From: Gammaproteobacteria bacterium
GTDB lineage: Bacteria; Pseudomonadota; Gammaproteobacteria; Eutrophobiales; Eutrophobiaceae
DNA length: 64,000 nucleotides
Direction of reading: 5' to 3'
NCBI GenBank assembly: GCA_021773215.1
Contig: JAJFKM010000041.1
Location: 1,099 to 65,098 of the forward strand
Shown here: positions 1 through 14,973 of the stretch, piece after piece
Position numbering within the stretch: position 1 is the stretch's first letter
How the letters are laid out: the number at the start of each line of letters is the position of its first letter
Program-made: the position numbers and the translations under genes
Notes under the pieces: model-generated
Database searches by the model: none
What the model was told of the DNA's origin: nothing
The model's input: only the letters and a program-made list of their open reading frames with translations

Positions 1-100
1 AATCGATGATTAACCGTTGAACGAGATCTTTGATGATGTGGTAGGCGGGATTGTGAGAATCGACCTTTGATAGATCGTCAGCACTTTTAAATAACAACAT
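1..100 (-). CDS. hypothetical protein, N-terminal part only (gene continues past the window start)
   Basis: ATG at 98-100 on the minus strand is preceded by a strong AGGAGGT Shine-Dalgarno (reverse complement of 107-113) with 6-nt spacing. The frame stays open to the window edge (MLLFKSADDLSKVDSHNPAYHIIKDLVQRLIID...). It is too short to be in the ORF track because it is truncated. Confidence 0.35.
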   Translation of the reverse strand, partial: MLLFKSADDLSKVDSHNPAYHIIKDLVQRLIID

Positions 101-382
101 AGGTTTGTTACCTCCTAAAGAATGGACGATAAAAATCCGCAGTACATAAATGCACGGCAGGTTATTTGAGGTTGTATGTAATTAAGGGATTAAAATTAAG
201 GTGTGTATGTGTACTTCATATAAGGTACTTATTTTTGCGCAATTGATACCTTCGATAGATTAGTGTTTGGTCATTGATTAATTGAGGGGCTGCATTGCTT
301 AGTGGCCTGGATGGGGCAGCGGAAAAAGTGGGCGGTGAGAGGGGCGGATAATTCGATGGATTTGATCGGGATAGTTTTATAA

Positions 383-1375
383 GTGCTAGAAAAATGCATT
401 ACGTTTGGCGAGTTTTTAGCGCATCGCGCGCCGATGACGGGCTATTACCCGGATAGGGGGCTTTTCAACCAAGGCAAGTCCGGCCCGATCGTCGATCGGT
501 TACGGAAGGAACTGGCAATCCTGCCGGGAGATCGCTTCATGGGATCGGTTGCAACAGTATGGGGCGCGAAGGGGGGAGCGCTGCGGCAAGAGCTTTCATT
601 GCCCGCCAGTACCACGCTCGAACCTGGACAATTCGAGGAGTTCATCGCCTATGTCGGAAACAAGACCGGAAATGATCATGATCTGATCGATCTTTGGAGG
701 TTTAACATTCCGACCCTGTCCGAGTATGGGCAGAGTGTTTCGCGTCAGTACATGTTCTACATCCAGAATTTTCTTAGCGAGAGCGGTGACCCTACGGAAG
801 TCTCAATAGCTTTCCCCAGGAAGGCCAATGTGGGAGTAATGGCCGCCATGGGCGTGTGTTTTATCGTGATTGACCGCCCATTGTCAGATTCCCGAGTAAC
901 GCTAGCTCTAACAGAGCAGTTTGCCCACACAACCCTTTATCTCTACGAGATCGCAGACCCAATTCTAGGAAACTACAGTCCGGTGAGTTTTGAGTTGGAT
1001 CCCAACTTATCAAAATTTCGGGCCAGCGTAGAGGGAGACCCGGGTGTCCTAGCAAGAACGGCGTATGTGCAGGAGCTGGTGGAAGGTACGGTAGTCCCTG
1101 CCCGTGACGCACAGATGGCCTACGAGAAGGGAGGTGTACACGTGACTGCGTCGAACGAGGGCACGTCAGTACTTCTTCTACCCTTGCAATTTTCTCACTG
1201 CCTGAGCACCCGGGACCATGGGGTCAAGCTCAGTCGCGCCAATCTCATCTTCACCCAGATCAAGTTCCATGGTGTCCTAGACACGAAGATTGAATGGGAA
1301 TTCGACTTCTGGAGAGGTAGCGATTGTAGGGTTCAGGATGTCGGTGACATGCGGTTGTTGGGACTACTCAATTGA
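383..1375 (+). CDS. hypothetical soluble protein (330 aa) whose C-terminal ~110 aa are homologous to the C-terminal domain of the 717-aa membrane protein at 1846-3999
   Basis: Long ORF in the GC-rich block. By eye its tail (SVLLLPLQFSHCLSTR...RANLIFTQIKFHGVLDTKIE...DCRVQDVGD) aligns with the tail of the 717-aa protein (SLVVVPFAFSNCLRIV...RVNLLLTGILFEGSLDVLIE...DCLLKDVQD). No recognisable enzymatic motif. Confidence 0.55.
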   Translation: MLEKCITFGEFLAHRAPMTGYYPDRGLFNQGKSGPIVDRLRKELAILPGDRFMGSVATVWGAKGGALRQELSLPASTTLEPGQFEEFIAYVGNKTGNDHDLIDLWRFNIPTLSEYGQSVSRQYMFYIQNFLSESGDPTEVSIAFPRKANVGVMAAMGVCFIVIDRPLSDSRVTLALTEQFAHTTLYLYEIADPILGNYSPVSFELDPNLSKFRASVEGDPGVLARTAYVQELVEGTVVPARDAQMAYEKGGVHVTASNEGTSVLLLPLQFSHCLSTRDHGVKLSRANLIFTQIKFHGVLDTKIEWEFDFWRGSDCRVQDVGDMRLLGLLN

Positions 1376-1845
1376 TGTAACCCTAGCTACCAGATTGAAA
1401 AGGTTGACCTTTGGCCGAACAATGCCTCTCCTGGCGGTTTTTCATAATAACTTTCATGGTCCTTCTCCTAGTCTGCTGTACATCGCAAGCTCCTCTGTTG
1501 CACTCAGATGCCGGTTCAGATAAGGGCGACCATCCCAGTCACGGCCATAGATTGACCGGGCCATGGTGAAAACAAAGCTGTTATTGTTGACGTCACTATG
1601 CAGGCGTATGTTCTGTCTGTGATTGACGCAATAAATACTGCGAACGGTGGCAGCTTGAACTTGAACCATAGTTCTGTGTTGGATATATCCGGACAACCTA
1701 ATGGTGGTATTTATAAGTTTGAATGATTGAGCTTGGAAAGCGGTGACGTTTTTAGAGATTCGATGTTGTTTTCTTCGTATCATTGTAACTTCATACAATT
1801 TAACTTATCAGCACCTTTTATACACCTGTTTGACTTTATTCCAAT

Positions 1846-3999
1846 TTATGAAGCGTTTAGATCCTCAATGTCTTGCACGTCTTTCAGAAGACAATCAGTA
1901 TTACTAAACGGCGTTTGATGATGCTCGATCAACACATCAAGAGAGCCCTCAAACAAAATACCGGTCAACAATAGGTTTACTCGCTTCAACTCGGCCGACT
2001 CGGAACTACTCGACCCCACGATTCGCAAGCAATTGGAAAACGCGAAGGGAACCACGACCAAAGAATGCCCGCTGGTGTTGGCACGGACGCGGAAGCCACC
2101 ACGTTCCATAGTGATCGAAATGGCACGGGCGGGCATCAGCGGTTTCGTATGGTCGGTTCGCGATAGCATCGCCGTTTGCGCGAAATCAACCTCTTGCTCC
2201 CCGAGCCACGCGAGCGCGGTGTTTGACGAAGTGAAGGGTACCGTCTCCGTCGGCGATATGCCGAGATTGGTTTCTGAAATTACATCTAATGCGAGCGGTT
2301 CTTTTCCCTCCAATGTAATTTCTTGAACGCGTTCCGTCTCAGGCGTCGGGGGGCCATCGGTAATAATGTAGCGGACTCCGAGGAGGCGAAGGATCCGCAG
2401 GTTCGGCAGGCGCATATTGAGAATGTTGCGACTTTGGCCGTCGCCGGCCGGCGCTAGGTACTGTGTGGCGACACCCCACAGCTCAGGTGGAATGGTATGG
2501 CTGAATTCGATTAATGTGGGAATACCATAATACCAAAGGCCGATGGTGCGATGCTCATTACCGATGGCCCGCATGAGTTTCAAGTCCAGACCAAACATTT
2601 CGTTCCAGCCGGATTGAGCCGGCAGCCCTTGACCGGTCATAGTGACCACCCGACCACGGAAAGGCGAGCCGCGAAAGAGTCCTACTTCATCGCTCAAGAT
2701 GTTCGTCAGTATCGATGCTGTCGGCGGATAAATATTGGGTCGAGCATTGATGGTACGATGCAGATAGTTTGGACCATGTAGTGCTAGAAAGCCGGATAAT
2801 ACGATTGCAATTTCGGCACATAGACCTAGTGTCGGGCGTGGTAAAGACGTTTTTCTCAACAAGTACAAACCGGAGTATGTTACTACATCGAAGAGCAGCA
2901 GCATTGCGAATACGACATAGATCGGCCAAATGACCATTTCATAATACAGTGGAATTGCTACGGATTTGCCGTAAGTGGCATAATACCATGTGGCCGATAA
3001 GATGAGTCCGACCAATATTGTCGTGGCTAGCGCAAACTGTCGCCTCCGCTCGCTCCCGAATAGAATGCAGTAAATACTACCGGTCACACCCAAGGCGGCT
3101 ATTATCGACGAAATCGGCTCAAATGAATAGCGCAGTAGCAGTGACCCGTCGCTTGCCGGATGATTAGTGCGATATGCATTTTCTAGGAAAAAGTGGAAGT
3201 AGGTGTCGGACGACATGCCCAACATTGCCTCAGGTAACCCCGAAACGACCAAGAACACCAGAACACATCCTCCCCATAAGAACTTACTGAGAAGCTCAGC
3301 CCGATTACGTGCACCAATAAAAAAAACGACGCCGAACACGACAATAAAGGGAAGCGTCACCGCAAAGAAGAGCCCGAAGGCTGTTGCCAGCACCCATGTC
3401 AGAAAGCTGATTGCCCCTGCTCTTAGTGCGTCTCCTAAAAGTGGGCCGCGGCCGATGCCGGCCCAGAGTACAATTATGGCGAAGGCTGTCAGGTCCAAGC
3501 TGACCAGTATCGGAAAATCGCCAGTTACATTGTAGAACAGAGATGGAAAGCTGAGCGGTGAAATGACCAATACCGCAAACCATCCTGTGACCACCGCTCG
3601 ACCGGATTTGACACCCAACCAAAACGCGAGTAGCGACACACCGACGAACATTTCAACGGACGCGGTGGTGTGGATAGCTATCTTTTGCCAAGTCGGATCA
3701 GAAAAGAACTGCGCTACTGCCAGTTCTGGAATCCAGCGAGTGTTGGCAAAATACCAGAGATCGTTTAGACCTTGCAGGGGATTCGTAGAAAAACCTAGGC
3801 TTGGGGAAGCGAATTCCATTTGACTCCGGACAAGCGTCAATAGGTAGTGCCCGTCTATGTAGCTGAGTAAATTATCAACGTTGAGCCAAAACGTCGCACT
3901 GGTGAATATGGCGACTAAGAGCGTATGCACGGCCAGACGACTCGGCCAAGCTGCGTCTATTTGGCGGACGGTTGGGGAGTGGGGAGTTATATTGACCAT
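1846..3999 (-). CDS. large polytopic integral membrane protein (717 aa) with a C-terminal non-membrane domain; GT-C-like glycosyltransferase architecture is possible but unproven
   Basis: Long ORF with more than 10 hydrophobic helix-length segments over the first ~430 aa, then a ~280-aa hydrophilic C-terminal region. GC-rich relative to the rest of the window. It lies immediately downstream of the secreted-protein gene on the same strand, so the two may form an operon. Confidence 0.65.
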   Translation of the reverse strand: MVNITPHSPTVRQIDAAWPSRLAVHTLLVAIFTSATFWLNVDNLLSYIDGHYLLTLVRSQMEFASPSLGFSTNPLQGLNDLWYFANTRWIPELAVAQFFSDPTWQKIAIHTTASVEMFVGVSLLAFWLGVKSGRAVVTGWFAVLVISPLSFPSLFYNVTGDFPILVSLDLTAFAIIVLWAGIGRGPLLGDALRAGAISFLTWVLATAFGLFFAVTLPFIVVFGVVFFIGARNRAELLSKFLWGGCVLVFLVVSGLPEAMLGMSSDTYFHFFLENAYRTNHPASDGSLLLRYSFEPISSIIAALGVTGSIYCILFGSERRRQFALATTILVGLILSATWYYATYGKSVAIPLYYEMVIWPIYVVFAMLLLFDVVTYSGLYLLRKTSLPRPTLGLCAEIAIVLSGFLALHGPNYLHRTINARPNIYPPTASILTNILSDEVGLFRGSPFRGRVVTMTGQGLPAQSGWNEMFGLDLKLMRAIGNEHRTIGLWYYGIPTLIEFSHTIPPELWGVATQYLAPAGDGQSRNILNMRLPNLRILRLLGVRYIITDGPPTPETERVQEITLEGKEPLALDVISETNLGISPTETVPFTSSNTALAWLGEQEVDFAQTAMLSRTDHTKPLMPARAISITMERGGFRVRANTSGHSLVVVPFAFSNCLRIVGSSSSESAELKRVNLLLTGILFEGSLDVLIEHHQTPFSNTDCLLKDVQDIEDLNAS

Positions 4000-4293
4000 A
4001 TTGAGTGACGTAAGTTTTTAAAGTTGTTAAGCGCCTAGTTTAACAAAGCTGCTGTTGCGTGTTTTAGCGTTCATAAAGAGGCGAGGAAATTTCCATAATC
4101 CATAACGAAGGGAGTTGTTTGGAGCTTCCTCTCAGCTGAGTCCAAAGTGCAATAAGAATTTTTGTTACTCACCGTTGATAACTCGCACTTAAATTGTAAC
4201 TTTTTCTATATTCACAATTTCTGAGAAACCGGAACTCGATCCTTACTAGCAATTTTATAAAGGCTGGAATTCGATAACGAGTTCCAGAGTCTG

Positions 4294-5196
4294 TTACGAC
4301 TGTAGTGGAGAAAGGTACAGTGTTCCGGATTGCATTGTCGCACAGCCGCCCTGTCCCCCGTTGGACATAAACAACGACACACGGACATAGCCCTCCTCAG
4401 CCCCTTTCGCACCGATTGCCACTGTATGAATGGTGCTGACATCATTGGGACTGCCTTGATAATGAATCGCTGTGTGACTGAATGGGACCCCGTCTATACC
4501 GACCATGACATGCACATAACCTCTGGGCTTGTCGCTTTTAACTGTTCCGGAGACATAGGCATTTGGAACCGTGAAAGCCTGTCGAAATGTGTCATTTATA
4601 CCAAAGGTCAGAAATTCCAGAAAAAAGCCTGAAATCTCCGTCATCGTGTCCGAGCATGTTCTCGCAATCGGCGCGCCGAGCGTCGGGCCAATGAAGGCTG
4701 CGAGCCCAGTATGCCCTCGATTGGCCCACGAGATCGTCATCTGTCGATTGACTTCACCTCTGATCATTCCATTCTCGTCGGTCCGAGCCATACCAACAAG
4801 GGAGAGTGTGGGATCGTCTACGTGAACCTCATTTCCGTAGGTTTCATCCTCCTTGTGGCCACCGGTACTGAAGCTCATCTTCATCACCTTGTCATCCATG
4901 AAAACGAACGTGCGGTAGAGCGTCAGCGGCGCAAGTATTTGACCGCATACTTTTTCAATGCAGGCATTTTTCACTTCACCAATCACCCCCCCAGAAATGA
5001 CTCCTACACCCGGCGGTATTGTTTCTGATTGCCCAGCTATAACGATCTGGTTACCATTTTTCGGAACGAAATGAACCCGACTGAAGGGAGAACCTGAATC
5101 GGCCAAGGGAAGAAATTGCCCCTCATTGCCAGCCCAGGCGAGTTGATTAATCGATATTATGAAAATTAAACCTAAACCTAGAAAAATATGATTCAT
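4294..5196 (-). CDS. secreted or periplasmic hypothetical protein (300 aa) with an N-terminal signal peptide
   Basis: N-terminus MNHIFLGLGLIFIISINQLAWA- is a typical Sec signal peptide with an AxA cleavage motif. Long ORF in the GC-rich block. No recognised domain. Confidence 0.55.
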   Translation of the reverse strand: MNHIFLGLGLIFIISINQLAWAGNEGQFLPLADSGSPFSRVHFVPKNGNQIVIAGQSETIPPGVGVISGGVIGEVKNACIEKVCGQILAPLTLYRTFVFMDDKVMKMSFSTGGHKEDETYGNEVHVDDPTLSLVGMARTDENGMIRGEVNRQMTISWANRGHTGLAAFIGPTLGAPIARTCSDTMTEISGFFLEFLTFGINDTFRQAFTVPNAYVSGTVKSDKPRGYVHVMVGIDGVPFSHTAIHYQGSPNDVSTIHTVAIGAKGAEEGYVRVSLFMSNGGQGGCATMQSGTLYLSPLQS

Positions 5197-5746
5197 ACTG
5201 AACTCGTAAATGGGGTGCTCAATTTGGCTACTATAATATATTTAATCCAGCTAGGCACTCATACATTAATTTGCCAATAATTTTGCAATTATATAATCGA
5301 AAATTATTATGGATAGTTCTATAAAAATAATCAAGTAAGTCGTATCATAATTATTAAGTCTGAATTTATAGATATCCGCTTTGAGTCTCCTCCAATTAGC
5401 TGACAAAAAACATTATCTTTCAAATCAAGAAAATCAGTGTAAATATAGAAAGCAAAAGTAGAATAATCAGTAAGACAACGGATTAACCTACATACACTCA
5501 AGCTATACCGAATACAATTTCGCGACAGTTAAATTTAATGAACGCGAGAGACATTAGGGTTTAAAACCCCAGAAGAAAAGATTAAGGAATGTGTTGCATA
5601 TACAGATTGAATTAGCAGTACAATGCAGACATAAAATGAAATTATATAAAGTGAGTATGACTATATATTGCTATTTCTTATGTATTAAATAAATAACATA
5701 TGATGATGTTTTCTAAATCATATGGAAGATATTATCTGAAATTAAT

Positions 5747-5831: not shown

Positions 5832-6776
5832 ATGAATAAAAATGCCATCATAGTAGGCAGTTCTGGGCAAGATGGGAGGTTGCTCTCAAGTCTTTTAGTT
5901 TCTCGTGGATACAAAGTTACTAAGATTTCACGCGAATCTATTATTACTGGTGATATCCAATCCGATCCTATTGATATTGGAGACCTGAAACAGGTTAATG
6001 ATCTTGTCAAAAAAATAAAACCACAGGAAATATATTTCCTAGCTGCTTTTCATCATTCGTCCGAAGATGATCTTTGCAATGAAGCTTTTTTATTACAAGA
6101 AAGCAATAGAGTGCACTTCATAGCTGCAACAGCGTTCCTAGAGGCCATACGAACATTTTCACCTAAAAGTAGGTTTTTTTATGCAGCTTCATCACATGTT
6201 TTCGGAGAACCAACCACACTCATTCAAGATGAAAAAACACCACTAAATCCTGATAGCGTATATGGAATAACTAAAACCGCGGGTTTGCTCTCCTGCAGAT
6301 ATTATCGAGAAACACATGGTGTCTTTGCAGCAGTAGGTATTATGTATAATCATGAATCATCTTTACGTGATGTACGATTTGTATCAAAAAAGATAGCTAC
6401 TGGAGTAGCGCTTATTAAAAGTGGTGTTAAAGAAAATATTGTTTTGGGTGATCTTGATGCCGCAGTTGATTGGGGTTGTGCGTCTGATTTTGTTGAAGCC
6501 ATGACACGAATAATGGACCTAGATATATCTGAGGATTTTGTCATAGCTACAGGGGAACGTCATACTGTAAGAGAGTTTGTTGATATTGCTTTTAGTTACG
6601 CTAATCTAAATTATAAACTATATATAAAACCTGCACATTCAATCATTAAACGTTCAGCTAAGAACCTTGTCGGAAATCCAGGCCGTCTAAAAAAAATAAC
6701 AGGCTGGAAACCAAAGGTAAGCTTTGATGAAATGGTACACCGTATGGTACAAGCTGAAATGGATGCATTATTATGA
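5832..6776 (+). CDS. NAD(P)-dependent sugar-nucleotide epimerase/dehydratase of the extended SDR family, GDP-mannose 4,6-dehydratase/Rmd-like
   Basis: N-terminal Rossmann motif AIIVGSSGQDGRLLSSLL resembles the GMD/Rmd GxxGQDG signature. Catalytic YxxxK is present (YGITK). AGGA Shine-Dalgarno 4 nt upstream. The stop overlaps the next gene's start in ATGA. Confidence 0.75.
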   Translation: MNKNAIIVGSSGQDGRLLSSLLVSRGYKVTKISRESIITGDIQSDPIDIGDLKQVNDLVKKIKPQEIYFLAAFHHSSEDDLCNEAFLLQESNRVHFIAATAFLEAIRTFSPKSRFFYAASSHVFGEPTTLIQDEKTPLNPDSVYGITKTAGLLSCRYYRETHGVFAAVGIMYNHESSLRDVRFVSKKIATGVALIKSGVKENIVLGDLDAAVDWGCASDFVEAMTRIMDLDISEDFVIATGERHTVREFVDIAFSYANLNYKLYIKPAHSIIKRSAKNLVGNPGRLKKITGWKPKVSFDEMVHRMVQAEMDALL

Positions 6777-8209
6777 GCAACGAACTTCTTATCTTTATTC
6801 CAACGTACAACGAAAGAGAAAATGTTGAAAGTATTATTATGGATATCATGGGACTTAGCTTGTCTGCCGATATCCTCTTCATTGACGACAGTTCGCCAGA
6901 TGGCACTGGTGATCTGCTAGAAGAATTTGCTTGTAAGTATGAAAATGTGATTGTACAACATCGAGCAGGAAAGCTTGGCGTCGGAAGTGCACACAAACAA
7001 GGGATTAAGTGGGCTTATGATAATGGATACAAGCTTTTGATTACAATGGACTGCGATTTTACGCATTCACCTAAAAAGATTATAGATTTTTTAAAGAAGT
7101 CTGATGATGCGGATGTGGTTGTTGGTTCACGTTATATGGATACGAATAGTCTTGTTGGGTGGAATCTGTTCCGTAAATTGCTAACTAATCTTGGGCATTC
7201 ACTAACTAAGTTTTTCCTAAAAATGCCTTACGATGCAACAGGTGGTTTTCGTCTTTACCGGCTTGATAGTATTTCATCTGTTTTTCTCAACTCAATATAT
7301 TCATCCAGTTATTCATTCTTTTTTGAGAGTCTTTATGTGTTACACCTCAATAACTTTAGAATTGTAGAAATATCTACTGTGCTTCCAGCACGAGTATATG
7401 GTCACTCAAAAATGCGCATCATTGATGCATGGTATAGTCTTATGCATCTAGTAGATATCTATTTTACAACTTTGCTTAATCGTGAGCGCTTCGAATTTGT
7501 GGAGCCCTTCAACTCGACAACAAAAAATCTTAAAGAGGATAAGGACTGGAACAATTATTGGTCCGGAAAGGATAAGCCAACACATCTTGTTTACGATCTT
7601 ATTGCTGCATTTTATAGAAGGTTTATCATTCGGCCGTCACTTAATCATTTTATCAGAAAGTATTTTGACCGGGATTCACAAGTTATGCATGCTGGATGCG
7701 GTAGTGGACAGGTAGATATTGGTATCGCAGATTACATCAAGATATCGGCGATCGATATTTCGGTTCAAGCACTTAGCATATACAAGAAAACAAACAAACA
7801 TCATCAGGAACTAATACATGGCTCTATTTTTTCTATCCCTGTGGAGAATGATTTTTATGATGGTATATACAATCTCGGAGTAATGGAGCACTTTCCCGAA
7901 GATGAAATTGTGAAAATACTATCAGAATTTCATCGCGTGTTAAAACCTGATGGCAAGTGTGTTCTGTTTTGGCCACCTGAATTTGGACTAAGTGTCATTT
8001 TCCTCAAATTTGTTCATTTTATTCTCAATCGGGTACTCAAAAAAGATATTTTGCTTCATCCAGCAGAAATAACTCGAGTTACATCAAAAGCTCAAGTTGC
8101 AGACTTTCTGAGTAAGACTGGGTTTTCATTGGTCGAATACAGTTTTGGTATTCGTGATTTTTTTACCTATGTGGTGGTCATAGGACAAAAGACTACTCAG
8201 AGGACCTAA
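6773..8209 (+). CDS. bifunctional family-2 glycosyltransferase (DPM1-like, N-terminal) fused to a class I SAM-dependent methyltransferase (C-terminal)
   Basis: N-terminus IFIPTYNERENV...LFIDDSSPDGT...TMDCDF carries the GT2 DxD/DxS-type motifs. C-terminus HAGCGSGQVDIG...GVMEHFPEDE...LKPDGKCVLFWPP carries methyltransferase motifs I-III. ATGA overlap with the upstream gene. Confidence 0.75.
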   Translation: MSNELLIFIPTYNERENVESIIMDIMGLSLSADILFIDDSSPDGTGDLLEEFACKYENVIVQHRAGKLGVGSAHKQGIKWAYDNGYKLLITMDCDFTHSPKKIIDFLKKSDDADVVVGSRYMDTNSLVGWNLFRKLLTNLGHSLTKFFLKMPYDATGGFRLYRLDSISSVFLNSIYSSSYSFFFESLYVLHLNNFRIVEISTVLPARVYGHSKMRIIDAWYSLMHLVDIYFTTLLNRERFEFVEPFNSTTKNLKEDKDWNNYWSGKDKPTHLVYDLIAAFYRRFIIRPSLNHFIRKYFDRDSQVMHAGCGSGQVDIGIADYIKISAIDISVQALSIYKKTNKHHQELIHGSIFSIPVENDFYDGIYNLGVMEHFPEDEIVKILSEFHRVLKPDGKCVLFWPPEFGLSVIFLKFVHFILNRVLKKDILLHPAEITRVTSKAQVADFLSKTGFSLVEYSFGIRDFFTYVVVIGQKTTQRT

Positions 8210-8210
8210 G

Positions 8211-9113
8211 ATGGTTGTTCAAGAAACTGAACTAGTAGATTTCCCTTGTCCGATCTGTGAAAACGTTGACTATGATGTTATCCATCCCGATACACTAGAT
8301 AATTGCTTACCAGAGTTTGGTTATGATTTTAACAGCAGACATTCGGATCACTATAGAATAATAAGGTGTCAAAGTTGTAGTCATGGGTATTGCTCACCTA
8401 GACCAGCTGATTTATATCGAAGCTATATTGATGTCGAGGATTCAGAGTATTTAAAGAATACAACACAAAGGTTAGAGACGGCGAGTTTAGTAATTGAGAC
8501 TATTAGAAAAATTAAGTTGTCTGGTAGGTTGTTGGACATCGGCCCCGCTACCGGTGACTTCCTTAGTATAGCAAAGAAATACTATGATTCAGATGGCTTA
8601 GAACTATCAAAATGGGCTGCGAATATTGCAGTAAAGAAAGGACACACAATCCATTCCTGCCGATTATCTGAACTCGTAACTAATACCGACTATGATATTA
8701 TCACTATGTGGGGGGTGATAGAACATTTCGAGTTCCCGAAAGATGAGATTATTGAAATTAAAAGGATACTTGCTGCAGATGGGATAGTTTGTTTTTGGAC
8801 AGGGGACATAGATTCCTGGTTGGCTCGGTTGCTCGGTTCAAAGTGGTGGTATATCCAAGGACAACATATACAGTACTTCAGTCAAAGGTCACTGGACAAG
8901 CTATTTGATGAGCAAGGTTTTAAACGCATATATACCGCACGTTATCCGTATGTGATGAGCTTGGAGTCTATGGCAAAATCACTTGGTCGTTATCCATTCA
9001 TTGGACCGTTAGCTAATGCAATTTTTTCTAATAGTCTATTTGGGAAATGGACTATTACATTTCGACTTCCAGGAGAACTTTTCGCAATTTACCAAAAGCA
9101 AGTAAATCAATAA
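8211..9113 (+). CDS. SAM-dependent methyltransferase with an N-terminal Cys4 zinc ribbon (sugar O- or C-methyltransferase family)
   Basis: CPIC...CQSC zinc ribbon, then LDIGPATGDF (motif I), ITMWGVIEHFEFP and LAADGIVCFW. Starts 2 nt after the upstream stop, so it is the third gene of the operon. Confidence 0.7.
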   Translation: MVVQETELVDFPCPICENVDYDVIHPDTLDNCLPEFGYDFNSRHSDHYRIIRCQSCSHGYCSPRPADLYRSYIDVEDSEYLKNTTQRLETASLVIETIRKIKLSGRLLDIGPATGDFLSIAKKYYDSDGLELSKWAANIAVKKGHTIHSCRLSELVTNTDYDIITMWGVIEHFEFPKDEIIEIKRILAADGIVCFWTGDIDSWLARLLGSKWWYIQGQHIQYFSQRSLDKLFDEQGFKRIYTARYPYVMSLESMAKSLGRYPFIGPLANAIFSNSLFGKWTITFRLPGELFAIYQKQVNQ

Positions 9114-9373
9114 AAGCTTTACCGCGTATAAAGTATTTTGATGTTCAAATAATCGCGAATCTGAATCAGGCAGTATGTTCGAGGAAGAGAATCGATCGAT
9201 ATTAAATTTCATGTTTATCTTGGTTCCATATCTTTGTTGCAGGAATCAAATATATAGCTATATGATGAGCTTGCGAACTGATTTATCGGAAGACAAATTA
9301 CTTGTAAGAAATACAGATGAGTTGTTATGGCTCTTTTCAGTTATAAAAGTAGTTAATCTCTCATTCTAAAGTT

Positions 9374-10303
9374 TTATGCGACTGCTATGAATTTCATCAC
9401 GCCTGATTTTCCTAAAAAGAAAGGTGCTATATTGAATGGTATCATGGCAAGCAATAATAGTTCGAACCCATGCATTCTTCCAAATTTCAACTTCGGATTG
9501 TTACGTAGATCAGCAATGTTCCTTTGAAGATAATTCTGGATAGATGCGGCAATTGTTCCTGTATTTAACTCACTGGTGATAAATACCTCTTTGAACCCAG
9601 CATTTAATAGCAGGGTTGTTAATTGTTTTTTATCATATTGAAATGTATGACGAGGGACATGATTGCCACCCCAATATCGACCAAAAAGTTTACGGTCTAC
9701 AGATCCAAAATTTGGTGTTTCACCTACTAGTATTCCACCAGAGCGAATGAGTTCTCGCGCTTTCTGAAGCTCAGCTATAGGATTCAGCATATGCTCAATA
9801 TAGTTGTTCATGAACACAGCATCGTACGATGACGGTTCATCTTGAAAATCAACAAAAAGACCTTGGAATACATTTATTCTTTTATTTTTGGCTAGATTTA
9901 CAGCTTTTTCACTGAAATCAATTCCTTGAAGAGTTTCAGCGCCTATTTCTTTAAGTCGTAATAAAAACTCTCCATTTCCACAACCAACGTCCAGGACTTT
10001 AGCACCTCTTTTAATATATTTTTGTAATTTTCGACGTAAGCCAAAATTGGCAAGGAAGAAAAGTATGTCGTATAACATCCTCCTTGCTCGGGCCTCTGGG
10101 ACATGAGAGCTATAATTTTCTGGGTACGCAATCATTAATTCTTCAATAGTTGGAAAAGGATGTAACTGAACTTGTCGACATCTTAGGCATTTGCGATATT
10201 CATATTCACCGCCAATACCAAACTCCCAATCTCTTATTTGCGACGTTTCAGTGAGGTATGAAGAATTACTACACAATCGACATTTATAATTTATAATATT
10301 CAA
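9374..10303 (-). CDS. SAM-dependent methyltransferase with an N-terminal Cys4 zinc ribbon (paralogous architecture to 8211-9113)
   Basis: CRLC...CLRC zinc ribbon, then VLDVGCGNGEF (motif I), AVFMNNYIEHMLNP and IRSGGILVGETP. Confidence 0.7.
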   Translation of the reverse strand: MNIINYKCRLCSNSSYLTETSQIRDWEFGIGGEYEYRKCLRCRQVQLHPFPTIEELMIAYPENYSSHVPEARARRMLYDILFFLANFGLRRKLQKYIKRGAKVLDVGCGNGEFLLRLKEIGAETLQGIDFSEKAVNLAKNKRINVFQGLFVDFQDEPSSYDAVFMNNYIEHMLNPIAELQKARELIRSGGILVGETPNFGSVDRKLFGRYWGGNHVPRHTFQYDKKQLTTLLLNAGFKEVFITSELNTGTIAASIQNYLQRNIADLRNNPKLKFGRMHGFELLLLAMIPFNIAPFFLGKSGVMKFIAVA

Positions 10304-10323
10304 TTATTTACCGAATCCCATGA

Positions 10324-11169
10324 TTAGTCCTTTACTTGCCAAGGAAGATTATGGAACCAATCGTTTAGATATGTAAGGTGATTGCCCGTACAAATTTCTA
10401 TTGATAGATTTCCTTTTGTATGTGGTTTATGTGCAAGCATTCTCTCTCGAACTATTTGGAGATTTTCAAAAGGCACCATTGGATAAAAATGATGCTCTGC
10501 ATGATGACGAAATCCCATGTTGCCGAAAAAACATGCTAATAACCCATTATCTAGAAACGTCCGTAATACGAATTTTCCAATAACGGGATCACCATGCTCA
10601 GCTAGCCCTCGCAATTTCGCTAAGCCTTGAACTAAAGTTATTAACGGTAATAACCAGAAAAATAGATAGTACATAGGGCCCATAGAAAGGCTAAAAATAA
10701 TCATGATTATGATTTGCACAAAAATTAAAGAAATAGTGTCAGATGACCTCGATGATTTCAACGTTGACGATTTATTTCCCCAGAAAATTTGATTGATTGC
10801 AGCTAAGCCAGAAAAACTAAAAATTATAAAAATCAAAAAATCTATTTTTGATTTCGGCGGGGACTTATATATTGGTAAATCTGGGTCTAGATTGGGAACT
10901 CCAAAATGTTTATGGTGTTGCAGGTGTTCGTCTCGAAATGACTTCGTCAAACCAATAGGATATGCTACAAAACATGCGACTAAGTTTGCGGTTTTGCTTC
11001 TGGTTCGAAAATCCTGATGACTAGCCTCATGTGCCGCATGCAATAAATGGTATTGAAGTATGCCAACTGATAGAAAAACTAACGACGCTATAATATATTC
11101 ATAAAATGGAGCAGTATTTAATGTCACTGTATACAATAAAAAAATAATACAGTAATAACTCCACCCCAT
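10324..11169 (-). CDS. membrane fatty-acid desaturase / sterol-desaturase family di-iron protein
   Basis: Three histidine boxes are present (HAAHEASH, HLQHHKH, HHAEHH) with several hydrophobic segments. It lies 20 nt upstream of the 9374-10303 methyltransferase on the same strand. Confidence 0.65.
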   Translation of the reverse strand: MGWSYYCIIFLLYTVTLNTAPFYEYIIASLVFLSVGILQYHLLHAAHEASHQDFRTRSKTANLVACFVAYPIGLTKSFRDEHLQHHKHFGVPNLDPDLPIYKSPPKSKIDFLIFIIFSFSGLAAINQIFWGNKSSTLKSSRSSDTISLIFVQIIIMIIFSLSMGPMYYLFFWLLPLITLVQGLAKLRGLAEHGDPVIGKFVLRTFLDNGLLACFFGNMGFRHHAEHHFYPMVPFENLQIVRERMLAHKPHTKGNLSIEICTGNHLTYLNDWFHNLPWQVKD

Positions 11170-11475
11170 ATTAAAGCTACATTAATAAAAAAACGTTTTG
11201 TCCTTTTATGGCAAAATGCTATCTCAGTTTTTGTAAGAAAATTTTTATTTATGTTCAATTATATTTCATCCAAGTCTGCTTAGAGACCAACAATTTTTAA
11301 TTGTTTTTTCAAAGTTTATTTATTAAAAAGAAAATATCTATGGATGTGATTTGTTAGATAGTCTTAACTTGAACGTTAAGTGAGTAAAATCTATAATAAA
11401 GGGTTATAATTAATGTCAATATTTTAAGTATCGTTTTTTATTTAACTATAGTAATACTCGTTTGGAGGTTACAAA

Positions 11476-12735
11476 TTGCATCTCGGTTATAGAAAAACCT
11501 GTCGTGTGTGTGGATCAAGTGCTTTAACAAAAGTAATTGATCTTGGTGAACAATATTTGCAAGGATCTTTTGTCAAACCTGGTAAGGAACTTCCATCTAT
11601 GCGTAAAATTCCATTAACGCTTGTGAGATGTGATCCTACCAAAGATGAAATTGCTTGTGGTTTGCTGCAGATGGAACACACGGTTCCGGCAGAAGTGCTT
11701 TATTCAAATTACTGGTACCGTTCTGGTACTAATAACACAATGAGACAGCATCTCAAGGGGCTTGCGGAAGAAGCTAGCTCAATTTTTAATCATCCCAAAG
11801 CAAAGGTGCTTGATATTGGTTGTAATGATGGAACATTGTTGAAATGTTATCCAAATAATTTTGAAAAATATGGTGTTGATCCTTCTGATATTGCTCAAGA
11901 AATAAATGAACAATTTACTATAATACAAGATATTTTTCCTTCACAGGAACTTGAGACTAAGTTGGGGAAAAATAAAATCGATATAATAACTTCGATTGCA
12001 ATGTTCTATGATCTTGAAGACCCAATTGGTTTTACAAAAGGAATTAAGAACTACTTATCTTTAAATGGTATTTGGATATTTGAAATGTCATATATGCCTG
12101 CCATGCTTAAAATGAATTCTTATGACACTATCTGCCATGAACATCTCGAATATTACAGTCTGGCTGTAATTGAATTTATTCTTAGCCGTGCTGGGATGAA
12201 AATTTTTAATGTGAACCAGAATTCAATCAATGGTGGAAGTATTCGTTGTTATGCTACGCATATCAATAATAATTGCTATAAAAAACCTCAGTTTGAAAGT
12301 AATCTGAGAATGATGCGCAACGATGAATTTGATCTTAGTCTGGATTTAGACTTGCCATACAAAGATTTTCAGGAATCTGCGAATTTAAATAAAAAAGAGC
12401 TTTTGTCGTTGCTTATTAAGTTAAAAAATGACGGTAAGTCTATCCATATTTATGGTGCATCCACAAAAGGAAATACTATCTTACAATGGTGCGGTATTGA
12501 TTTTCGGCTTATTGAAGCCGCCTCTGAGCGTAATCCCGATAAATATGGTGCGAAAACTCTTGGAACTGACATACCTATTATTAGTGAGGCGGAATCGAGA
12601 GCTATGAATCCTGATTACTATCTTGTTTTGCCATGGCATTTTAAAGAAGAGTTTATAGAGCGTGAAAAAGTATCTTTAGATAAAGGTGTTGGATTTATCT
12701 TTCCATTGCCTAATGTAGAAATAATAAAGAAATAG
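11476..12735 (+). CDS. NDP-hexose C-methyltransferase-like protein (TylCIII/TcaB9-like: zinc-binding N-terminus, methyltransferase domain, C-methyltransferase C-terminal domain)
   Basis: TTG start with a GGAGG Shine-Dalgarno 5 nt upstream. CRVCGSS near the N-terminus, VLDIGCNDGTL (motif I), ~419 aa length, and the C-terminal region typical of the sugar 3-C-methyltransferase family. Confidence 0.65.
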   Translation: MHLGYRKTCRVCGSSALTKVIDLGEQYLQGSFVKPGKELPSMRKIPLTLVRCDPTKDEIACGLLQMEHTVPAEVLYSNYWYRSGTNNTMRQHLKGLAEEASSIFNHPKAKVLDIGCNDGTLLKCYPNNFEKYGVDPSDIAQEINEQFTIIQDIFPSQELETKLGKNKIDIITSIAMFYDLEDPIGFTKGIKNYLSLNGIWIFEMSYMPAMLKMNSYDTICHEHLEYYSLAVIEFILSRAGMKIFNVNQNSINGGSIRCYATHINNNCYKKPQFESNLRMMRNDEFDLSLDLDLPYKDFQESANLNKKELLSLLIKLKNDGKSIHIYGASTKGNTILQWCGIDFRLIEAASERNPDKYGAKTLGTDIPIISEAESRAMNPDYYLVLPWHFKEEFIEREKVSLDKGVGFIFPLPNVEIIKK

Positions 12736-12990: not shown

Positions 12991-13353
12991 ATGATGACAA
13001 GTAAAAGAAGTGTAGAACATACTGTGCGCGATATTCGTCGACGCACCCGTAAAAAATATTCAGCAGAAGAAAAAATACGTATCGTGCTTGAAGGCTTGCG
13101 TGGCGAAGAAAGCATCGCTGAGCTATGCCGCAAAGAAGGACTAAACCCAAATGTTTACTACCGTTGGTCGAAAGACTTTCTGGAGGCAGGTAAGAAACGT
13201 TTATCAGGCGATATCGTACGTGAAGCGACCTCGGATGAAGTGAAAGAATTGCGTACTGAAACGTCTGCGCTGAAAGAAACACTGGGCGAAGTAGTGATGG
13301 AGAATCGTCTGCTTAAAAAAAGCGTGCTCGGGGATGGGGAGGACGATATATGA
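12991..13353 (+). mobile_element. IS3-family transposase OrfA (helix-turn-helix) remnant; the A7 programmed-frameshift site is retained but orfB is deleted
   Basis: Protein MMTSKRSVEHTVRDIRRRTRKKYSAEEKIRIV...YYRWSKDF is typical of IS3/IS911 OrfA. The slippery heptamer TTAAAAAAAG sits at 13313-13322, with A7 at 13315-13321. No transposase catalytic ORF follows. Confidence 0.7.
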
Positions 13354-13372
13354 GGTACTTAGCATCGGATAA

Positions 13373-13689
13373 AGTCGAGATTATTCAACTGGTACAGAGC
13401 TCATGATGGAAAATGGCATCATGTAGCAGCTACACTTGATCTTATGAAGTCTGAAGCTGAGTTTTATTTTGATGGGATTAGAATGAATCTAGATATTGCT
13501 AAATATTCAAGGGGCAAACTTGAAACCTTAAGTAATAATATATTTTTGGGCGCAAACAATAGAGGCAATATACCGAGTAAGTCTACTGGTAAAACTATAA
13601 CTAATTTTTTCAAAGGTTCTATCGATAAAATTAGAATTTATAATAGAAAATTAAATTCTCGGGAGATTCATCATTTAAGCCGATCTTAA
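13373..13689 (+). pseudogene. LamG (concanavalin-A-like lectin/glucanase) domain fragment, internally frameshifted
   Basis: ...DGKWHHVAATLDLL then a stop, and in the -1 frame ...EAEFYFDGIRMN...FKGSIDKIRIYNRKLNSREI. These match the LamG strand pattern (W.HVA.T.D...YVDG...FKG.IDEVRIYNRALS..EI). There is no N-terminal part and no start context. Confidence 0.5.
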
Positions 13690-13960
13690 CTATTTCTTTT
13701 TCCGATGCATTTTTTCCACTTTATCCATTCGTTTAACATAAGTTGAAACGTCACCTTTATAGTATGTCATGACCTGCTGTACGGTTTTATGTACGGTTTT
13801 ATGTACGGTTATCTTAATCAGTCCCAGAATATTGAATTCTTTAGAAAGACGAGAACAGGCTTCATGCCTTAAGTTGTGAAAGTGGAAGTCTTTAATGTTG
13901 GAAAATAGGAAACTAAATTCTGATAGCGAAATATATTTTAAATCGAGAGTTTTCTTTGCA
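13690..13960 (-). pseudogene. tyrosine recombinase (phage-type integrase) C-terminal fragment
   Basis: Minus-strand translation gives ...LSEFSFLFSNIKDFHFHNLRHEACSRL..., i.e. the box II HxLRH motif region, and runs to a stop at 13690-13692. The N-terminal two-thirds are absent. It contains a 12-nt tandem repeat at 13779-13810. It sits 136 bp from the att-like tRNA-Asn repeat. Confidence 0.5.
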
Positions 13961-14095
13961 GTAGCAGCTTACTTATTCTATATCGCTATACATTATATAT
14001 ACGGTTATTTAGAAACAGCGGAAAGTATTCTGAAACTTATTCTGAAATAAGAAAAACCCACTACTTAAAGTGGGGTAAATCGTTGATTTAATTGA

Positions 14096-14134
14096 CTCCC
14101 CGGGACAGGCTCGAACTGCCGACCTAGTGATTAA
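14096..14134 (-). repeat. 39-bp perfect direct repeat of the 3' half of tRNA-Asn (att-like island boundary)
   Basis: CTCCCCGGGACAGGCTCGAACTGCCGACCTAGTGATTAA at 14096-14134 is identical to 14901-14939 inside the intact tRNA-Asn gene, in the same orientation. Confidence 0.85.
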
Positions 14135-14206
14135 TGTCGTATTTAATTATAATTTAGTATTTAAACCATAAAGCTGAGTTAATTTGAATGTCAGAGGCAT
14201 TTATAT

Positions 14207-14743
14207 ATGAATCATAAGTTTTCAGATAATAAAAAACATGCTTCAAGAGCTATAATTGATGCATTAATATTGTTTAGTGACAAACAGTTTTATGAATACT
14301 TAATAAATGAAGGTGGTGATAACTCTATTGAAGAAAAATGGTTTGATTGGTTTATAAAAGAATGGCGTGTAGCAAGAACTATAAATAGCAATAAAAAATC
14401 AGAATTTTTATATTATATTCACTCGGGTGACTTTAATTCATTAATAGATAAAGATTTTGAAACATCTGTAGATTTTGTTGCGAATACAATGAAGAAAAAT
14501 AAATGGTCAGCTTATAATGAAGATAAAAAATATTATGTGAAGCCAACTTCATTGGTTTCAAAAATTGGGTTTATCTTATTTCCAGAAATCATAATTCCTG
14601 TAGATAGGTATTCCAAATTAGGACTTAATAAAGTAAAAGGAACTAAAAAGGATGATGGGGAAGGATATTTAAAAGAGAATAGCTATGCAGAATATATTAA
14701 AGAGTTTAATAGAAAAAGAATGGGTTGCTGCAATTTCAGATGA
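14207..14743 (+). CDS. hypothetical protein (178 aa) encoded on the att-flanked mini-island
   Basis: Only long ORF between the two att copies. Very AT-rich and Lys/Asn-rich, with no recognised motif. A 49-aa ORF in another frame (14685-14834) overlaps its 3' end. Confidence 0.45.
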   Translation: MNHKFSDNKKHASRAIIDALILFSDKQFYEYLINEGGDNSIEEKWFDWFIKEWRVARTINSNKKSEFLYYIHSGDFNSLIDKDFETSVDFVANTMKKNKWSAYNEDKKYYVKPTSLVSKIGFILFPEIIIPVDRYSKLGLNKVKGTKKDDGEGYLKENSYAEYIKEFNRKRMGCCNFR

Positions 14744-14897
14744 ATTTGACATCAAAAAAACATTATTAAAAACCAAGAAGTTTCGCAGAAAGGTATACGA
14801 TAATTACCTAATGCATATTGGCGGAAGATATTGAGCCTCGATATCGCCATATCAAATAAAAAAAGCCCACATAAACATGCAGGCTTTTCATTTGATA

Positions 14898-14973
14898 TGG
14901 CTCCCCGGGACAGGCTCGAACTGCCGACCTAGTGATTAACAGTCACCCGCTCTACCGACTGAGCTACCGGGGA
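14898..14973 (-). tRNA. tRNA-Asn (anticodon GTT)
   Basis: Reverse complement folds as a cloverleaf: acceptor TCCCCGG/CCGGGGA, D arm GCTCAGTCGGTAGAGC, anticodon arm GGTGA-CTGTTAA-TCACT with anticodon GTT, T arm GGCAGTTCGAGCCTGTC, and CCA encoded. Confidence 0.9.

What the first reader, a model, noticed from the sequence alone, without database searches (positions are those of the whole stretch)
14096..14973. att-flanked 762-bp mini-island at tRNA-Asn carrying a single unknown gene
A perfect 39-bp copy of the 3' half of tRNA-Asn(GTT) at 14096-14134 lies in direct orientation 767 bp from the same segment inside the intact tRNA (14901-14939). This is the classical signature of site-specific integration into a tRNA gene. 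The segment between the repeats contains only a 178-aa Lys/Asn-rich ORF with no recognisable domain (plus a small overlapping ORF), and it has no integrase of its own. A decayed integrase fragment lies just outside the distal repeat. This is either the stump of a larger island, or a minimal satellite-like cargo module of the kind that often carries defence or toxin genes and is mobilised in trans.
Basis: seen in the sequence. Interest (0 to 1): 0.55.

Follow-up and report, generated by a model that had tools for sequence, protein, structure and literature searches.

The report
Decayed island stump at tRNA-Asn
A 763-bp piece of foreign DNA sits between the tRNA-Asn gene and a displaced copy of the tRNA's 3' part; it is most likely the decayed remnant of an integrated mobile element, and its single gene is a broken copy of an unnamed protein family that elsewhere sits next to restriction-modification genes.

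Summary
tRNA-Asn(GTT) lies at 14898-14973 (-). Its 3' part, from anticodon-loop base 35 to CCA, recurs in direct orientation at 14093-14134 (42 nt with 1 mismatch, 39 nt perfect), and no shuffle reproduced this. Identity stops sharply in the anticodon loop, which argues for site-specific integration and against tRNA duplication. The 763 bp between the copies has 27.8% GC against about 40% in the core. It holds one gene, not two: the 178-aa ORF and the small overlapping ORF are one reading frame broken by a roughly 14-codon deletion with a frame change, which removes the invariant C-terminal RKxFDN motif. So the gene is a pseudogene. The family has 129 representatives among 1.84 billion proteins and no Pfam, NCBIfam, PADLOC, PHROG or PDB match. 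Its AlphaFold model is confident and all-alpha, with no Foldseek match. In all 11 contexts examined it sits next to restriction-modification, nuclease or toxin-antitoxin genes. Left of the distal copy lie a tyrosine-integrase C-terminal stub, a LamG fragment and a truncated IS3. A relative with 91% identical flanks carries a different island at this tRNA, and a more distant relative has an empty site. Best reading: a CIME-like integrase-less remnant, in tandem with an older decayed island. Ordinary biology; the orphan family adds modest interest.

The parts
14898..14973 (-). Intact tRNA-Asn(GTT). Its 3' part (positions 35-76, 14898-14939) is the proximal att copy.
   Evidence: ARAGORN and Rfam RF00005 at 65.7 bits. 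The sequence is identical to the tRNA-Asn of relatives L003 and L004.
14093..14134 (-). Displaced 3' fragment of tRNA-Asn (distal att copy), positions 35-76, with C74 changed to T.
   Evidence: the repeat finder family D1. The 39-nt core is perfect, with 0 matches in 100 shuffles. Identity ends sharply at the anticodon loop.
14135..14897 (.). 763-bp foreign interval between the two att copies, with no integrase. It is CIME-like.
   Evidence: GC is 27.8% against 40.3% for 15041-64000. The interval is absent from relatives L003 and L004 and from all 80 syntenic loci.
14207..14834 (+). Single cargo gene, now a pseudogene. Frame 1 runs 14207-14743 (178 aa). The conserved C-terminus continues in the +1 frame from about 14712 to 14834. 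The deletion and frame-change junction lies within about 14708-14721.
   Evidence: The 38%-identical homologue P0002 spans both frames. In alignment A3 the window copy alone has a 14-residue gap at the frame switch. The invariant K216 and D219 fall in the shifted frame.
14846..14901 (.). Strong bidirectional hairpin with T-runs. It would terminate tRNA-Asn on the minus strand and the cargo gene on the plus strand, and it was supplied by the incoming element.
   Evidence: Inverted repeat I3. Terminator scan hit at 14889-14860. Fold energy is -28 kcal/mol with z=-6.0 on the minus strand and z=-6.2 on the plus strand.
14057..14074 (-). Terminator-like hairpin with a T-run directly downstream (in tRNA sense) of the displaced fragment. 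It is probably the former tRNA-Asn terminator.
   Evidence: Terminator scan. The fold is weak (-9.5 kcal/mol, z=-1.9).
13690..13968 (-). C-terminal stub of a tyrosine integrase from an older island. It keeps the HxLRH...H...Y motif region, carries an in-frame 12-bp tandem duplication (HKTV HKTV, 13785-13812), and has lost its N-terminal part (most of the protein).
   Evidence: Translation. Pfam PF00589 E=1.7e-3 against profile positions 122-162 of 172. tblastn matches to annotated site-specific integrases, best E=2e-8. Repeat family D3.
13444..13689 (+). C-terminal fragment of a LamG/concanavalin-like protein, convergent with the integrase stub. It is decayed cargo of the older island.
   Evidence: Pfam Laminin_G_3 E=4.7e-6, matching profile positions 92-151 of 151 only.
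12991..13405 (+). IS3-family remnant: orfA is intact (120 aa), the A-run slippery site is present, and orfB is cut off after about 18 codons.
   Evidence: Pfam HTH_Tnp_1 E=3.2e-14. The orfB truncation is read from the sequence.

Best explanation
The feature is a tandem integration scar at tRNA-Asn.

Step 1 (inferred). An integrase-bearing island integrated at tRNA-Asn with its tyrosine integrase next to the tRNA. That island has since decayed to an integrase C-terminal stub, a LamG fragment and a truncated IS3 at 12991-13968.

Step 2 (anatomy shown, order inferred). A second AT-rich element recombined with the regenerated tRNA by a crossover in the anticodon loop. It supplied a new 3' half of the tRNA (positions 35-76) and its own terminator. 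The previous 3' half, with its old terminator, was pushed 805 bp away to 14093-14134.

Step 3 (gene decay shown, loss of an integrase inferred). The second element has been reduced to 763 bp with no recombinase, and its only gene has been inactivated by a roughly 14-codon deletion that also changes frame.

What remains matches the definition of a cis-mobilizable element (CIME): attL and attR are retained, and integration and transfer genes are gone. It can move only if a cognate tRNA-Asn integrase is supplied in trans or if a functional element integrates next to it.

The cargo belonged to an unannotated family of about 220-aa all-alpha proteins. Elsewhere this family is found beside type I and type III restriction-modification genes, Mrr/HNH nucleases and toxin-antitoxin genes, so it was probably a defence-island gene. 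In this genome it is most likely non-functional.
For: - The repeat is real, directly oriented, and covers exactly tRNA positions 35-76.
- Both copies are followed, in tRNA sense, by a terminator-like hairpin. This is expected if each has served in turn as the tRNA 3' end.
- The interval has 27.8% GC against 40.3% for the core.
- The locus is polymorphic. L003 (flanks about 91% identical in DNA) has a serine-recombinase, tyrosine-recombinase and primase island at the same tRNA. L004 has only a terminator followed by polysaccharide genes.
- Other syntenic loci show complete islands with the same anticodon-loop repeat: L012 (9.2 kb, perfect 48-nt repeat, 453-aa integrase) and L037 (7.3 kb). L020 shows another integrase-less remnant of 1.7 kb.
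- The integrase stub sits directly outside the distal copy and reads away from it. This is the arrangement I recall (from my own knowledge) for integrases that sit next to the intact tRNA, as in P4-type islands.
- The cargo is a pseudogene. The homologue spans both frames. Only the window copy among the 7 sequences of A3 has the 14-residue gap, and in A2 all 40 full-length relatives are essentially ungapped across the corresponding stretch. The invariant K216 and D219 are out of frame.
- Neighbouring features are all fragments.
- CIMEs and tandem accretion are described in the literature as the common fate of tRNA-integrated elements (PMC5704250). The principle that a regenerated tDNA plus its displaced fragment marks an island's ends, and the anticodon-centred attP class, are in PMC4383910.
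Against: - No trace of a second integrase or other deleted genes survives inside the 763 bp. The interval is very compact: 72 bp upstream of the gene, the gene, then a 63-bp terminator region. This would also fit a naturally minimal module.
- The far att site of the older island was not found, so the tandem model rests on one att copy and the position of the integrase stub.
- No sister genome with the same module exists in the collections searched, so neither the deletion history nor any mobility could be traced.
- The source may be a metagenome assembly. Read-level support for the junctions and for the frame-changing deletion was not available.
Confidence: 0.62

Rival explanations
1. The roughly 805-bp unit (42-nt att, one gene, terminator) is a naturally minimal, integrase-less cargo module. 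It would be inserted and excised at tRNA-Asn by an integrase supplied in trans, for example the one whose stub lies next to the distal att. In topology this resembles an integron cassette next to its integrase. The gene decayed only after insertion.
For: - The interval is extremely compact and consists of exactly one gene with its own terminator and att copies.
- The 39-nt identity is still perfect.
- The integrase stub and the cargo gene are divergent across the distal att.
- The gene occupies the position and orientation, relative to the displaced fragment, that the integrase gene has in the L012 and L037 islands.
- The cargo family is defence-island associated, as is common for hitchhiking modules.
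Against: - There is no second instance. The family has no member next to a tRNA in 18 loci.
- The 39-mer att has no exact match in IMG/VR, and the family has no relative there.
- The module shows no similarity to other islands at this locus.
- The gene is a pseudogene, and so is the only nearby integrase, so no mobility can be current.
- Decay to integrase-less remnants is the documented common route (PMC5704250), and L020 shows it independently.
Confidence: 0.2
2. Assembly artefact. A small circular or variant molecule sharing the 39-42-nt tRNA segment was threaded into the chromosome path by the assembler, or two strain variants were joined at the shared repeat. This would create an apparent tandem att arrangement.
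For: The closest relatives found are metagenome-assembled genomes, so the source may be one too. A 39-42-nt exact repeat is shorter than or comparable to common assembly k-mers. This is inference only; no tool result supports it directly.
Against: Both junctions look biologically coherent: a sharp anticodon-loop boundary, a terminator after each copy, and one copy carrying a mutation at C74 as expected for a displaced, unselected fragment. Even under this scenario the module would carry an att site, so the biology changes little.
Confidence: 0.06
3. Local duplication of the tRNA-Asn gene followed by decay of one copy, with the gene between them being ordinary chromosomal DNA.
For: Tandem tRNA-Asn copies do occur at the syntenic locus in one distant relative: L045 has three copies spaced 156 and 236 bp apart.
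Against: No similarity extends beyond tRNA position 35 on the 5' side. The interval has 27.8% GC, and neither the interval nor its gene is found in L003 or L004. The boundary coincides with the anticodon-loop attP class (PMC4383910).
Confidence: 0.02

Closest known systems
CIME (cis-mobilizable element) and tandem accretion at tRNA genes, from ICESt1-type elements of Streptococcus thermophilus; reviewed in PMC5704250
   Same: It is flanked by attL and attR in direct orientation at the 3' part of a tRNA gene, lacks integration and transfer genes, and lies in tandem with another decayed element that shares the same att.
   Different: Descent from an ICE or IME is not shown. Cis-mobilisation is untested, and the neighbouring element is dead as well.
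tRNA-integrated genomic islands with an anticodon-centred attP ('A' sublocation; Islander, PMC4383910). Examples at this same locus are L012 and L037.
   Same: There is an intact tDNA plus a displaced 3' fragment in the same orientation. The identity block runs from the anticodon loop to the CCA end. The interval has foreign composition and varies between relatives.
   Different: There is no integrase inside the interval, so Islander's integrase filter would reject it. L012 and L037 carry a 443-453-aa integrase next to the displaced fragment, whereas here that position holds the cargo gene.
Integron gene cassettes
   Same: The unit is about 0.8 kb with a single gene and one recombination site, sitting next to a tyrosine recombinase gene that is divergent from it.
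   Different: The recombination site is a tRNA 3' part, not a folded attC. There is only one cassette. The integrase stub is too short to classify. No evidence of cassette exchange was found. This is a topological resemblance only.
Defence genes embedded in or appended to restriction-modification operons, for example TgvAB within the VPI-2 type I RM (PMC11411939) and DarTG2 between hsdS and hsdR (PMC12255303)
   Same: Intact relatives of the cargo gene lie directly after hsdM (L092, L094), after type III-like mod/res genes (L101), after a UvrD-PDDEXK gene beside an N6_N4_Mtase/ResIII pair (L102), and next to Mrr, HNH_2, NERD and KAP NTPase genes.
   Different: The family matches no PADLOC, Pfam or NCBIfam model consistently across its members, and no PDB fold. 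No phenotype is known. In the window the gene has no RM partner and is broken.

Membership tests
tRNA-integrated genomic island (Islander criteria) | An intact tDNA plus a displaced fragment of the same tDNA in direct orientation | tested here: met
   42 nt (39 perfect), same strand, tRNA positions 35-76.
tRNA-integrated genomic island (Islander criteria) | An integrase gene inside the interval | tested here: not met
   The 763 bp is filled by one non-integrase gene. The only integrase remnant (13690-13968) lies outside the distal copy.
tRNA-integrated genomic island (Islander criteria) | Foreign origin and presence/absence polymorphism among relatives | tested here: met
   GC is 27.8% against 40.3%. 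L003 has a different island, L004 is empty, and the gene is absent from 80 syntenic loci.
CIME (cis-mobilizable element) | Retains both attL and attR | tested here: met
CIME (cis-mobilizable element) | [quoted passage not shown] | tested here: met
   There is no recombinase, relaxase or transfer gene in 14135-14897.
CIME (cis-mobilizable element) | Derived by decay from an ICE or IME | not testable with these tools
   No larger relative of the interval was found.
CIME (cis-mobilizable element) | Can be excised or mobilised by a cognate element integrated alongside | not testable with these tools
   This needs excision PCR or read-level evidence. The adjacent integrase is a stub.
Phage satellite (PICI/P4-like) | Own integrase plus replication/primase and helper-interference genes | tested here: not met
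   None is present in the interval. By contrast, the L003 island at the same tRNA has recombinases and a primase.
Integron cassette | An attC recombination site and an IntI-type integrase | tested here: not met
   The flanking site is the 3' part of a tRNA. The integrase stub is too short to assign to any integrase subtype, IntI included.
HhH-GPD DNA glycosylase (considered for the cargo protein because of its SLVSK...PxD motif) | Sequence-profile or fold similarity to HhH-GPD enzymes | tested here: not met
The profile search of PDB sequences found nothing at E up to 10. In Foldseek the best HhH-GPD match was 3knt at rank 42, E=4.4, TM about 0.25.
Known anti-phage defence protein families (PADLOC-DB v2) | A significant match to a defence-system HMM | tested here: not met
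   The window protein had 0 hits. Among 40 family members there were only three singleton hits at E about 2e-3.

The most novel reading that the evidence does not exclude
The roughly 805-bp unit is a genuine integrase-less single-gene cassette that tRNA-Asn-specific integrases capture and release in trans. This would be an integron-like way of shuttling defence genes at a tRNA att site. Its cargo would belong to a previously undescribed, structurally novel family of restriction-modification-associated defence proteins.
Probability: 0.1. Interest if true: 0.7.

Novelty: new member of a known kind. Interest (0 to 1): 0.3.

Why it matters
As an island scar it is routine. It adds one more example of tandem accretion and decay at a tRNA hotspot, and it shows that tRNA-Asn downstream of this aminotransferase is a recurrent integration site across uncultured Gammaproteobacteria.

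The useful by-product is the cargo family. It is rare (129 representatives at 50% identity among 1.84 billion proteins) and completely unannotated. Its predicted all-alpha fold is very confident (pLDDT 94.8) yet has no match in PDB or BFVD. It has invariant R, S, K, D, Y, K and D residues, and it sits beside restriction-modification genes, nucleases or toxin-antitoxin genes in all 11 contexts examined. That makes it a reasonable candidate for an untested defence or RM-accessory function, to be studied in the intact homologues rather than in this broken copy.

Tried and rejected
**Family and structure searches for the cargo protein**
- Pfam, NCBIfam, PADLOC and PHROGs on the cargo protein and on 40 family members gave no consistent hit.
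- The PDB sequence-profile search gave nothing at E up to 10.
- Foldseek of the pLDDT 94.8 model against PDB and BFVD gave nothing at E up to 1e-3.
- The HhH-GPD glycosylase idea, suggested by the SLVSK...PxD motif, was rejected by hhalign at probability 0.2%.

**Searches for further att copies or a second copy of the module**
- A third att copy that would bound the older island was not found at up to 3 mismatches or by short-word blastn.
- The exact 39-mer att has no hit in IMG/VR, and the family has no relative there.
It was repeated with 7 sequences.
- The cargo gene is absent from 80 syntenic loci, and other family members have no tRNA nearby.
- DNA and translated comparison of the module with the L003, L012, L020 and L037 islands showed no similarity.
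- A distant-mode blastn of 13650-14973 against plasmids matched only the tRNA part.

**Other**
- The word-indexed homologue search with the integrase stub returned nothing. tblastn against the 80 syntenic loci also returned nothing. tblastn against plasmids did confirm that it is an integrase.
- An exact look-up of the 178-aa product found no encoding contig, so the source record could not be named.
- The simple sigma-70 scan found no promoter-like site upstream of the cargo gene on its own strand.
- RptR, a known RM-associated regulator, was checked in the literature and is an unrelated 79-aa protein.

Full report
**1.

ARAGORN and Rfam place tRNA-Asn(GTT) at 14898-14973 on the minus strand. 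The repeat finder reports a direct repeat at 14093-14134 and 14898-14939. It is 42 nt long with one mismatch, and a 39-nt core is perfect. The 39-mer and a 22-mer sub-pattern occur exactly twice in the window at up to 3 mismatches. None of 100 shuffles gave even one match.

In tRNA sense the repeat covers positions 35-76, from the second anticodon base to the CCA end. On the 5' side the similarity stops dead at ...GATTAA| inside the anticodon loop.

The single mismatch turns C74 into T in the distal copy. That is what one expects of a displaced fragment no longer under selection. The interval between the 42-nt copies is 763 bp (14135-14897).

**2. Anatomy of the interval**

- It has 27.8% GC, against 40.3% for 15041-64000.
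- It contains the 178-aa ORF (14207-14743) and a 49-aa ORF in the +1 frame (14685-14834).
- Between the gene and the tRNA lies a strong hairpin at 14846-14901 (-28 kcal/mol, z about -6 on both strands). It has T-runs on both sides, so it can terminate both the tRNA and the gene.
- The distal copy is also followed, in tRNA sense, by a terminator-like hairpin (14074-14057) and a T-run. Each copy therefore looks as if it has served as a tRNA 3' end, which fits successive integration events.

**3. The two ORFs are one broken gene**

A word-indexed search of 5.8 billion proteins found only the ORF itself and one homologue, P0002 (235 aa, 38% identity). P0002 aligns across both frames.

A full HMMER scan of 1.84 billion cluster representatives, using a two-sequence profile, found 129 relatives at E<1e-3. 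Of these, 26 are below 1e-30, and almost all are 205-235 aa long.

In a 40-member alignment, R63, S122, K126, P138, D140, Y167, K216 and D219 are invariant (P0002 numbering). The motifs are WxVARTI, SLVSK...PxD and RKVFDNxLM.

Alignment A3 shows that the window copy, alone among its 7 sequences, lacks 14 residues between '...EFN' and 'RKEWV...', and none of the 40 full-length relatives in A2 has a comparable gap there. That is exactly where the reading frame changes (about 14708-14721). One deletion whose length is not a multiple of three explains both defects. The invariant C-terminal RKxFDN helix is left out of frame. I therefore call the gene a pseudogene. This is shown by the alignments. 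The caveat is that read-level support for the assembly was not available.

**4. What the gene family is**

Family and structure searches:
- No Pfam, NCBIfam, PADLOC or PHROG model matches the window protein or, with any consistency, the 40 relatives.
- A profile search of PDB sequences is empty.
- AlphaFold2 with the 40-sequence alignment gives a very confident all-alpha model of 12 helices (pLDDT 94.8, pTM 0.91).
- Foldseek finds nothing at E up to 1e-3 in PDB or BFVD.
- The SLVSK...PxD motif suggested an HhH-GPD glycosylase. hhalign against EndoIII gave probability 0.2%, so I reject that idea.

Genomic context is informative:

| Locus | Neighbours of the family gene |
|---|---|
| L092 | Overlaps the end of hsdM by 14 bp; SNF2 helicase and NOV_C nearby |
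| L094 | Overlaps the end of hsdM by 4 bp; followed by a 390-aa unknown protein and an HNH_2 nuclease |
| L101 | Fic, N6_N4_Mtase (1108 aa), DEAD/ResIII (1108 aa), family gene, NERD |
| L102 | ResIII/YagJ plus N6_N4_Mtase, then UvrD-PDDEXK, then family gene |
| L104 | YgjP-like, NucS_C-like, family gene, two HNH_2 genes, DUF2726 |
| L001 | Mrr_cat nuclease |
| L095 | KAP NTPase |
| L088 | HicB |
| L093 | DUF433/PIN-like pair (judged by eye) |
| L103 | SocA_Panacea |
| L083 | Integrase fragment and PIN_4 |

Other points:
- One member (P0027) carries a C-terminal AbrB-like domain.
- No member is in IMG/VR, and none has a tRNA nearby.
- Embedding of accessory defence genes in RM operons is documented (PMC11411939; PMC12255303).

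I infer that the family is a defence-island or RM-accessory protein, probably an enzyme given its invariant polar residues. The mechanism is unknown.

**5. Surroundings**

Immediately left of the distal copy is a 197-bp spacer. Then comes an open frame on the minus strand (13693-13968) encoding '...FHFHNLRHEACSRL...VHKTV(HKTV)QQVMTYYKG...'. This is the C-terminal catalytic region of a tyrosine recombinase:
- Pfam PF00589 E=1.7e-3, matching profile positions 122-162 of 172.
- tblastn matches to many annotated site-specific integrases, best E=2e-8.

Its N-terminal part (most of the protein) is gone, and it carries a 12-bp in-frame duplication. Convergent with it is a LamG C-terminal fragment at 13444-13689. 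Next is an IS3 remnant with an intact orfA and an orfB cut after about 18 codons.

Further left, at 5.2-12.7 kb, lies a low-GC sugar-modification cluster. It includes a GDP-mannose-dehydratase-like gene, a GT2-methyltransferase fusion, methyltransferases, a fatty-acid desaturase and a C-methyltransferase. This is the counterpart of the polysaccharide genes that directly follow tRNA-Asn in L004.

The mobile-element debris is therefore confined to about 12.9-14.9 kb.

**6. Comparison with relatives**

The aminotransferase next to the tRNA retrieved 80 loci.

- **L003** (MAG OFTM147) is syntenic from at least thrS (window 22000) through tRNA-Val, uvrB and the aminotransferase to tRNA-Asn, and its tRNA-Pro lies in the corresponding upstream position. 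Identity over the aligned stretch is about 90-93% in DNA. Similarity ends exactly at the tRNA 3' end. Downstream it carries a different element: a 537-aa large serine recombinase whose ORF runs into the tRNA, a 334-aa tyrosine recombinase and a 918-aa primase.
- **L004** (80% amino-acid identity) has an unoccupied site, with a terminator followed by polysaccharide genes.
- Among the 60 syntenic loci that have tRNA-Asn:
  - L012 has a 9.2-kb island bounded by a perfect 48-nt repeat starting at C32, with a 453-aa integrase next to the displaced fragment.
  - L037 has a 7.3-kb island with a 443-aa integrase.
  - L020 has a 1.7-kb integrase-less interval bounded by a degenerate copy (86% over 35 nt).

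The site is therefore a recurrent hotspot, the anticodon-loop crossover class is used there, and integrase-less remnants arise independently.

**7. Most likely history and mechanism**

*Shown:*
- an intact tRNA plus a displaced 3' fragment in direct orientation;
- foreign composition of the interval;
- polymorphism among relatives;
- no recombinase inside the interval;
- a pseudogenised cargo gene;
- an integrase stub outside the distal copy.

*Inferred:*
1. An older island integrated with its integrase next to the tRNA.
2. A second element then integrated into the regenerated tRNA by an anticodon-loop crossover. It brought a new tRNA 3' half and terminator, and displaced the former 3' half together with its terminator.
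3. Both elements then decayed by deletion. The integrase N-terminus was lost, IS3 was truncated, and the cargo gene suffered its internal deletion.

What remains between the att copies fits the published definition of a CIME, and the pair fits tandem accretion (PMC5704250). The logic of a regenerated tDNA plus a displaced fragment, and the 'A' sublocation, are in PMC4383910. I put this reading at about 0.6.

**8. Rivals**

- **(a) A naturally minimal, trans-mobilised single-gene module (about 0.2).** The compactness and the integron-like topology are suggestive. However, there is no second instance anywhere, and everything nearby is dead.
- **(b) An assembly artefact at a 39-42-nt repeat (about 0.06).** This is not testable here. 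Both junctions look biologically coherent.
- **(c) A tRNA duplication (about 0.02).** Refuted.

**9. Novelty and verdict**

The phenomenon is well known, so this is a new member of a known kind. The gene here is broken, so no function is expected in this genome. The lasting value is the pointer to an unannotated, RM-associated family with a confident fold that matches no known structure. The intact homologues are worth testing. Interest is 0.3.

Noticed in passing
L003:11250-18076: In the closest relative (flanks about 91% identical in DNA), the same tRNA-Asn is occupied by a different element. It has a 537-aa large serine recombinase whose ORF runs through the tRNA 3' part to the TAA formed by the anticodon loop, a 334-aa tyrosine recombinase, and a 918-aa Zn-ribbon/Toprim primase. 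The element's distal end lies beyond the 10 kb fetched.
   Followed up: partly
L012:11436-20659 and L037:11268-18688: These are complete 9.2-kb and 7.3-kb islands at the syntenic tRNA-Asn. Each is bounded by a repeat that starts in the anticodon stem or loop (a perfect 48-nt repeat in L012). Each has a 443-453-aa P4-like integrase next to the displaced fragment, reading towards the tRNA.
   Followed up: partly
L020:11248-13028: This is an independent integrase-less 1.7-kb interval between tRNA-Asn and a degenerate partial copy (86% over 35 nt). It holds an Exo_endo_phos gene and a 147-aa ORF, and is another decayed remnant at the same hotspot.
   Followed up: partly
window 1-5200: This block has about 49% GC, well above the roughly 40% of the core. 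It holds a 717-aa multi-pass membrane protein (1846-3999, minus strand) with no Pfam match, and 330-aa and 300-aa ORFs. It is probably another foreign or variable segment adjoining the polysaccharide cluster.
   Followed up: no
window 5832-12735: This is a low-GC (about 35%) sugar-modification cluster: a GDP-mannose-dehydratase-like gene, a GT2-methyltransferase fusion, several SAM methyltransferases, a fatty-acid desaturase and a C-methyltransferase. It is not homologous to the polysaccharide genes at the same position in L004, so it looks like a hypervariable surface-polysaccharide locus next to the tRNA hotspot.
   Followed up: partly
window 12991-13405: This is an IS3-family remnant. orfA (120 aa) is intact and the A-run frameshift motif is present, but orfB is truncated after about 18 codons. 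It abuts the LamG fragment, which suggests an IS-associated deletion.
   Followed up: partly
window 13785-13812: There is a 12-bp tandem duplication (TTTTATGTACGG, twice) inside the integrase stub. It gives an in-frame HKTV-HKTV repeat within the catalytic-region remnant.
   Followed up: no
P0027 (family member, 319 aa; alignment A2 columns about 340-417): This member of the orphan family carries a C-terminal AbrB/SpoVT-like domain (NCBIfam TIGR01439, E=2e-4). The fusion hints at DNA binding or antitoxin-like regulation for the family.
   Followed up: no
L094:4188-7604: A disrupted duplicate of hsdM (4188-4952) and a Fic-like gene (identified by eye from its HPFRDGNGR motif, not scanned against Pfam) lie upstream of the intact hsdM and family-gene pair. 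The RM locus itself is being rearranged.
   Followed up: no
L045:3798-4336: There are three tandem tRNA-Asn-like units, spaced 156 and 236 bp apart, each with its own terminator. This is a true tRNA gene array, unlike the arrangement in the window.
   Followed up: no
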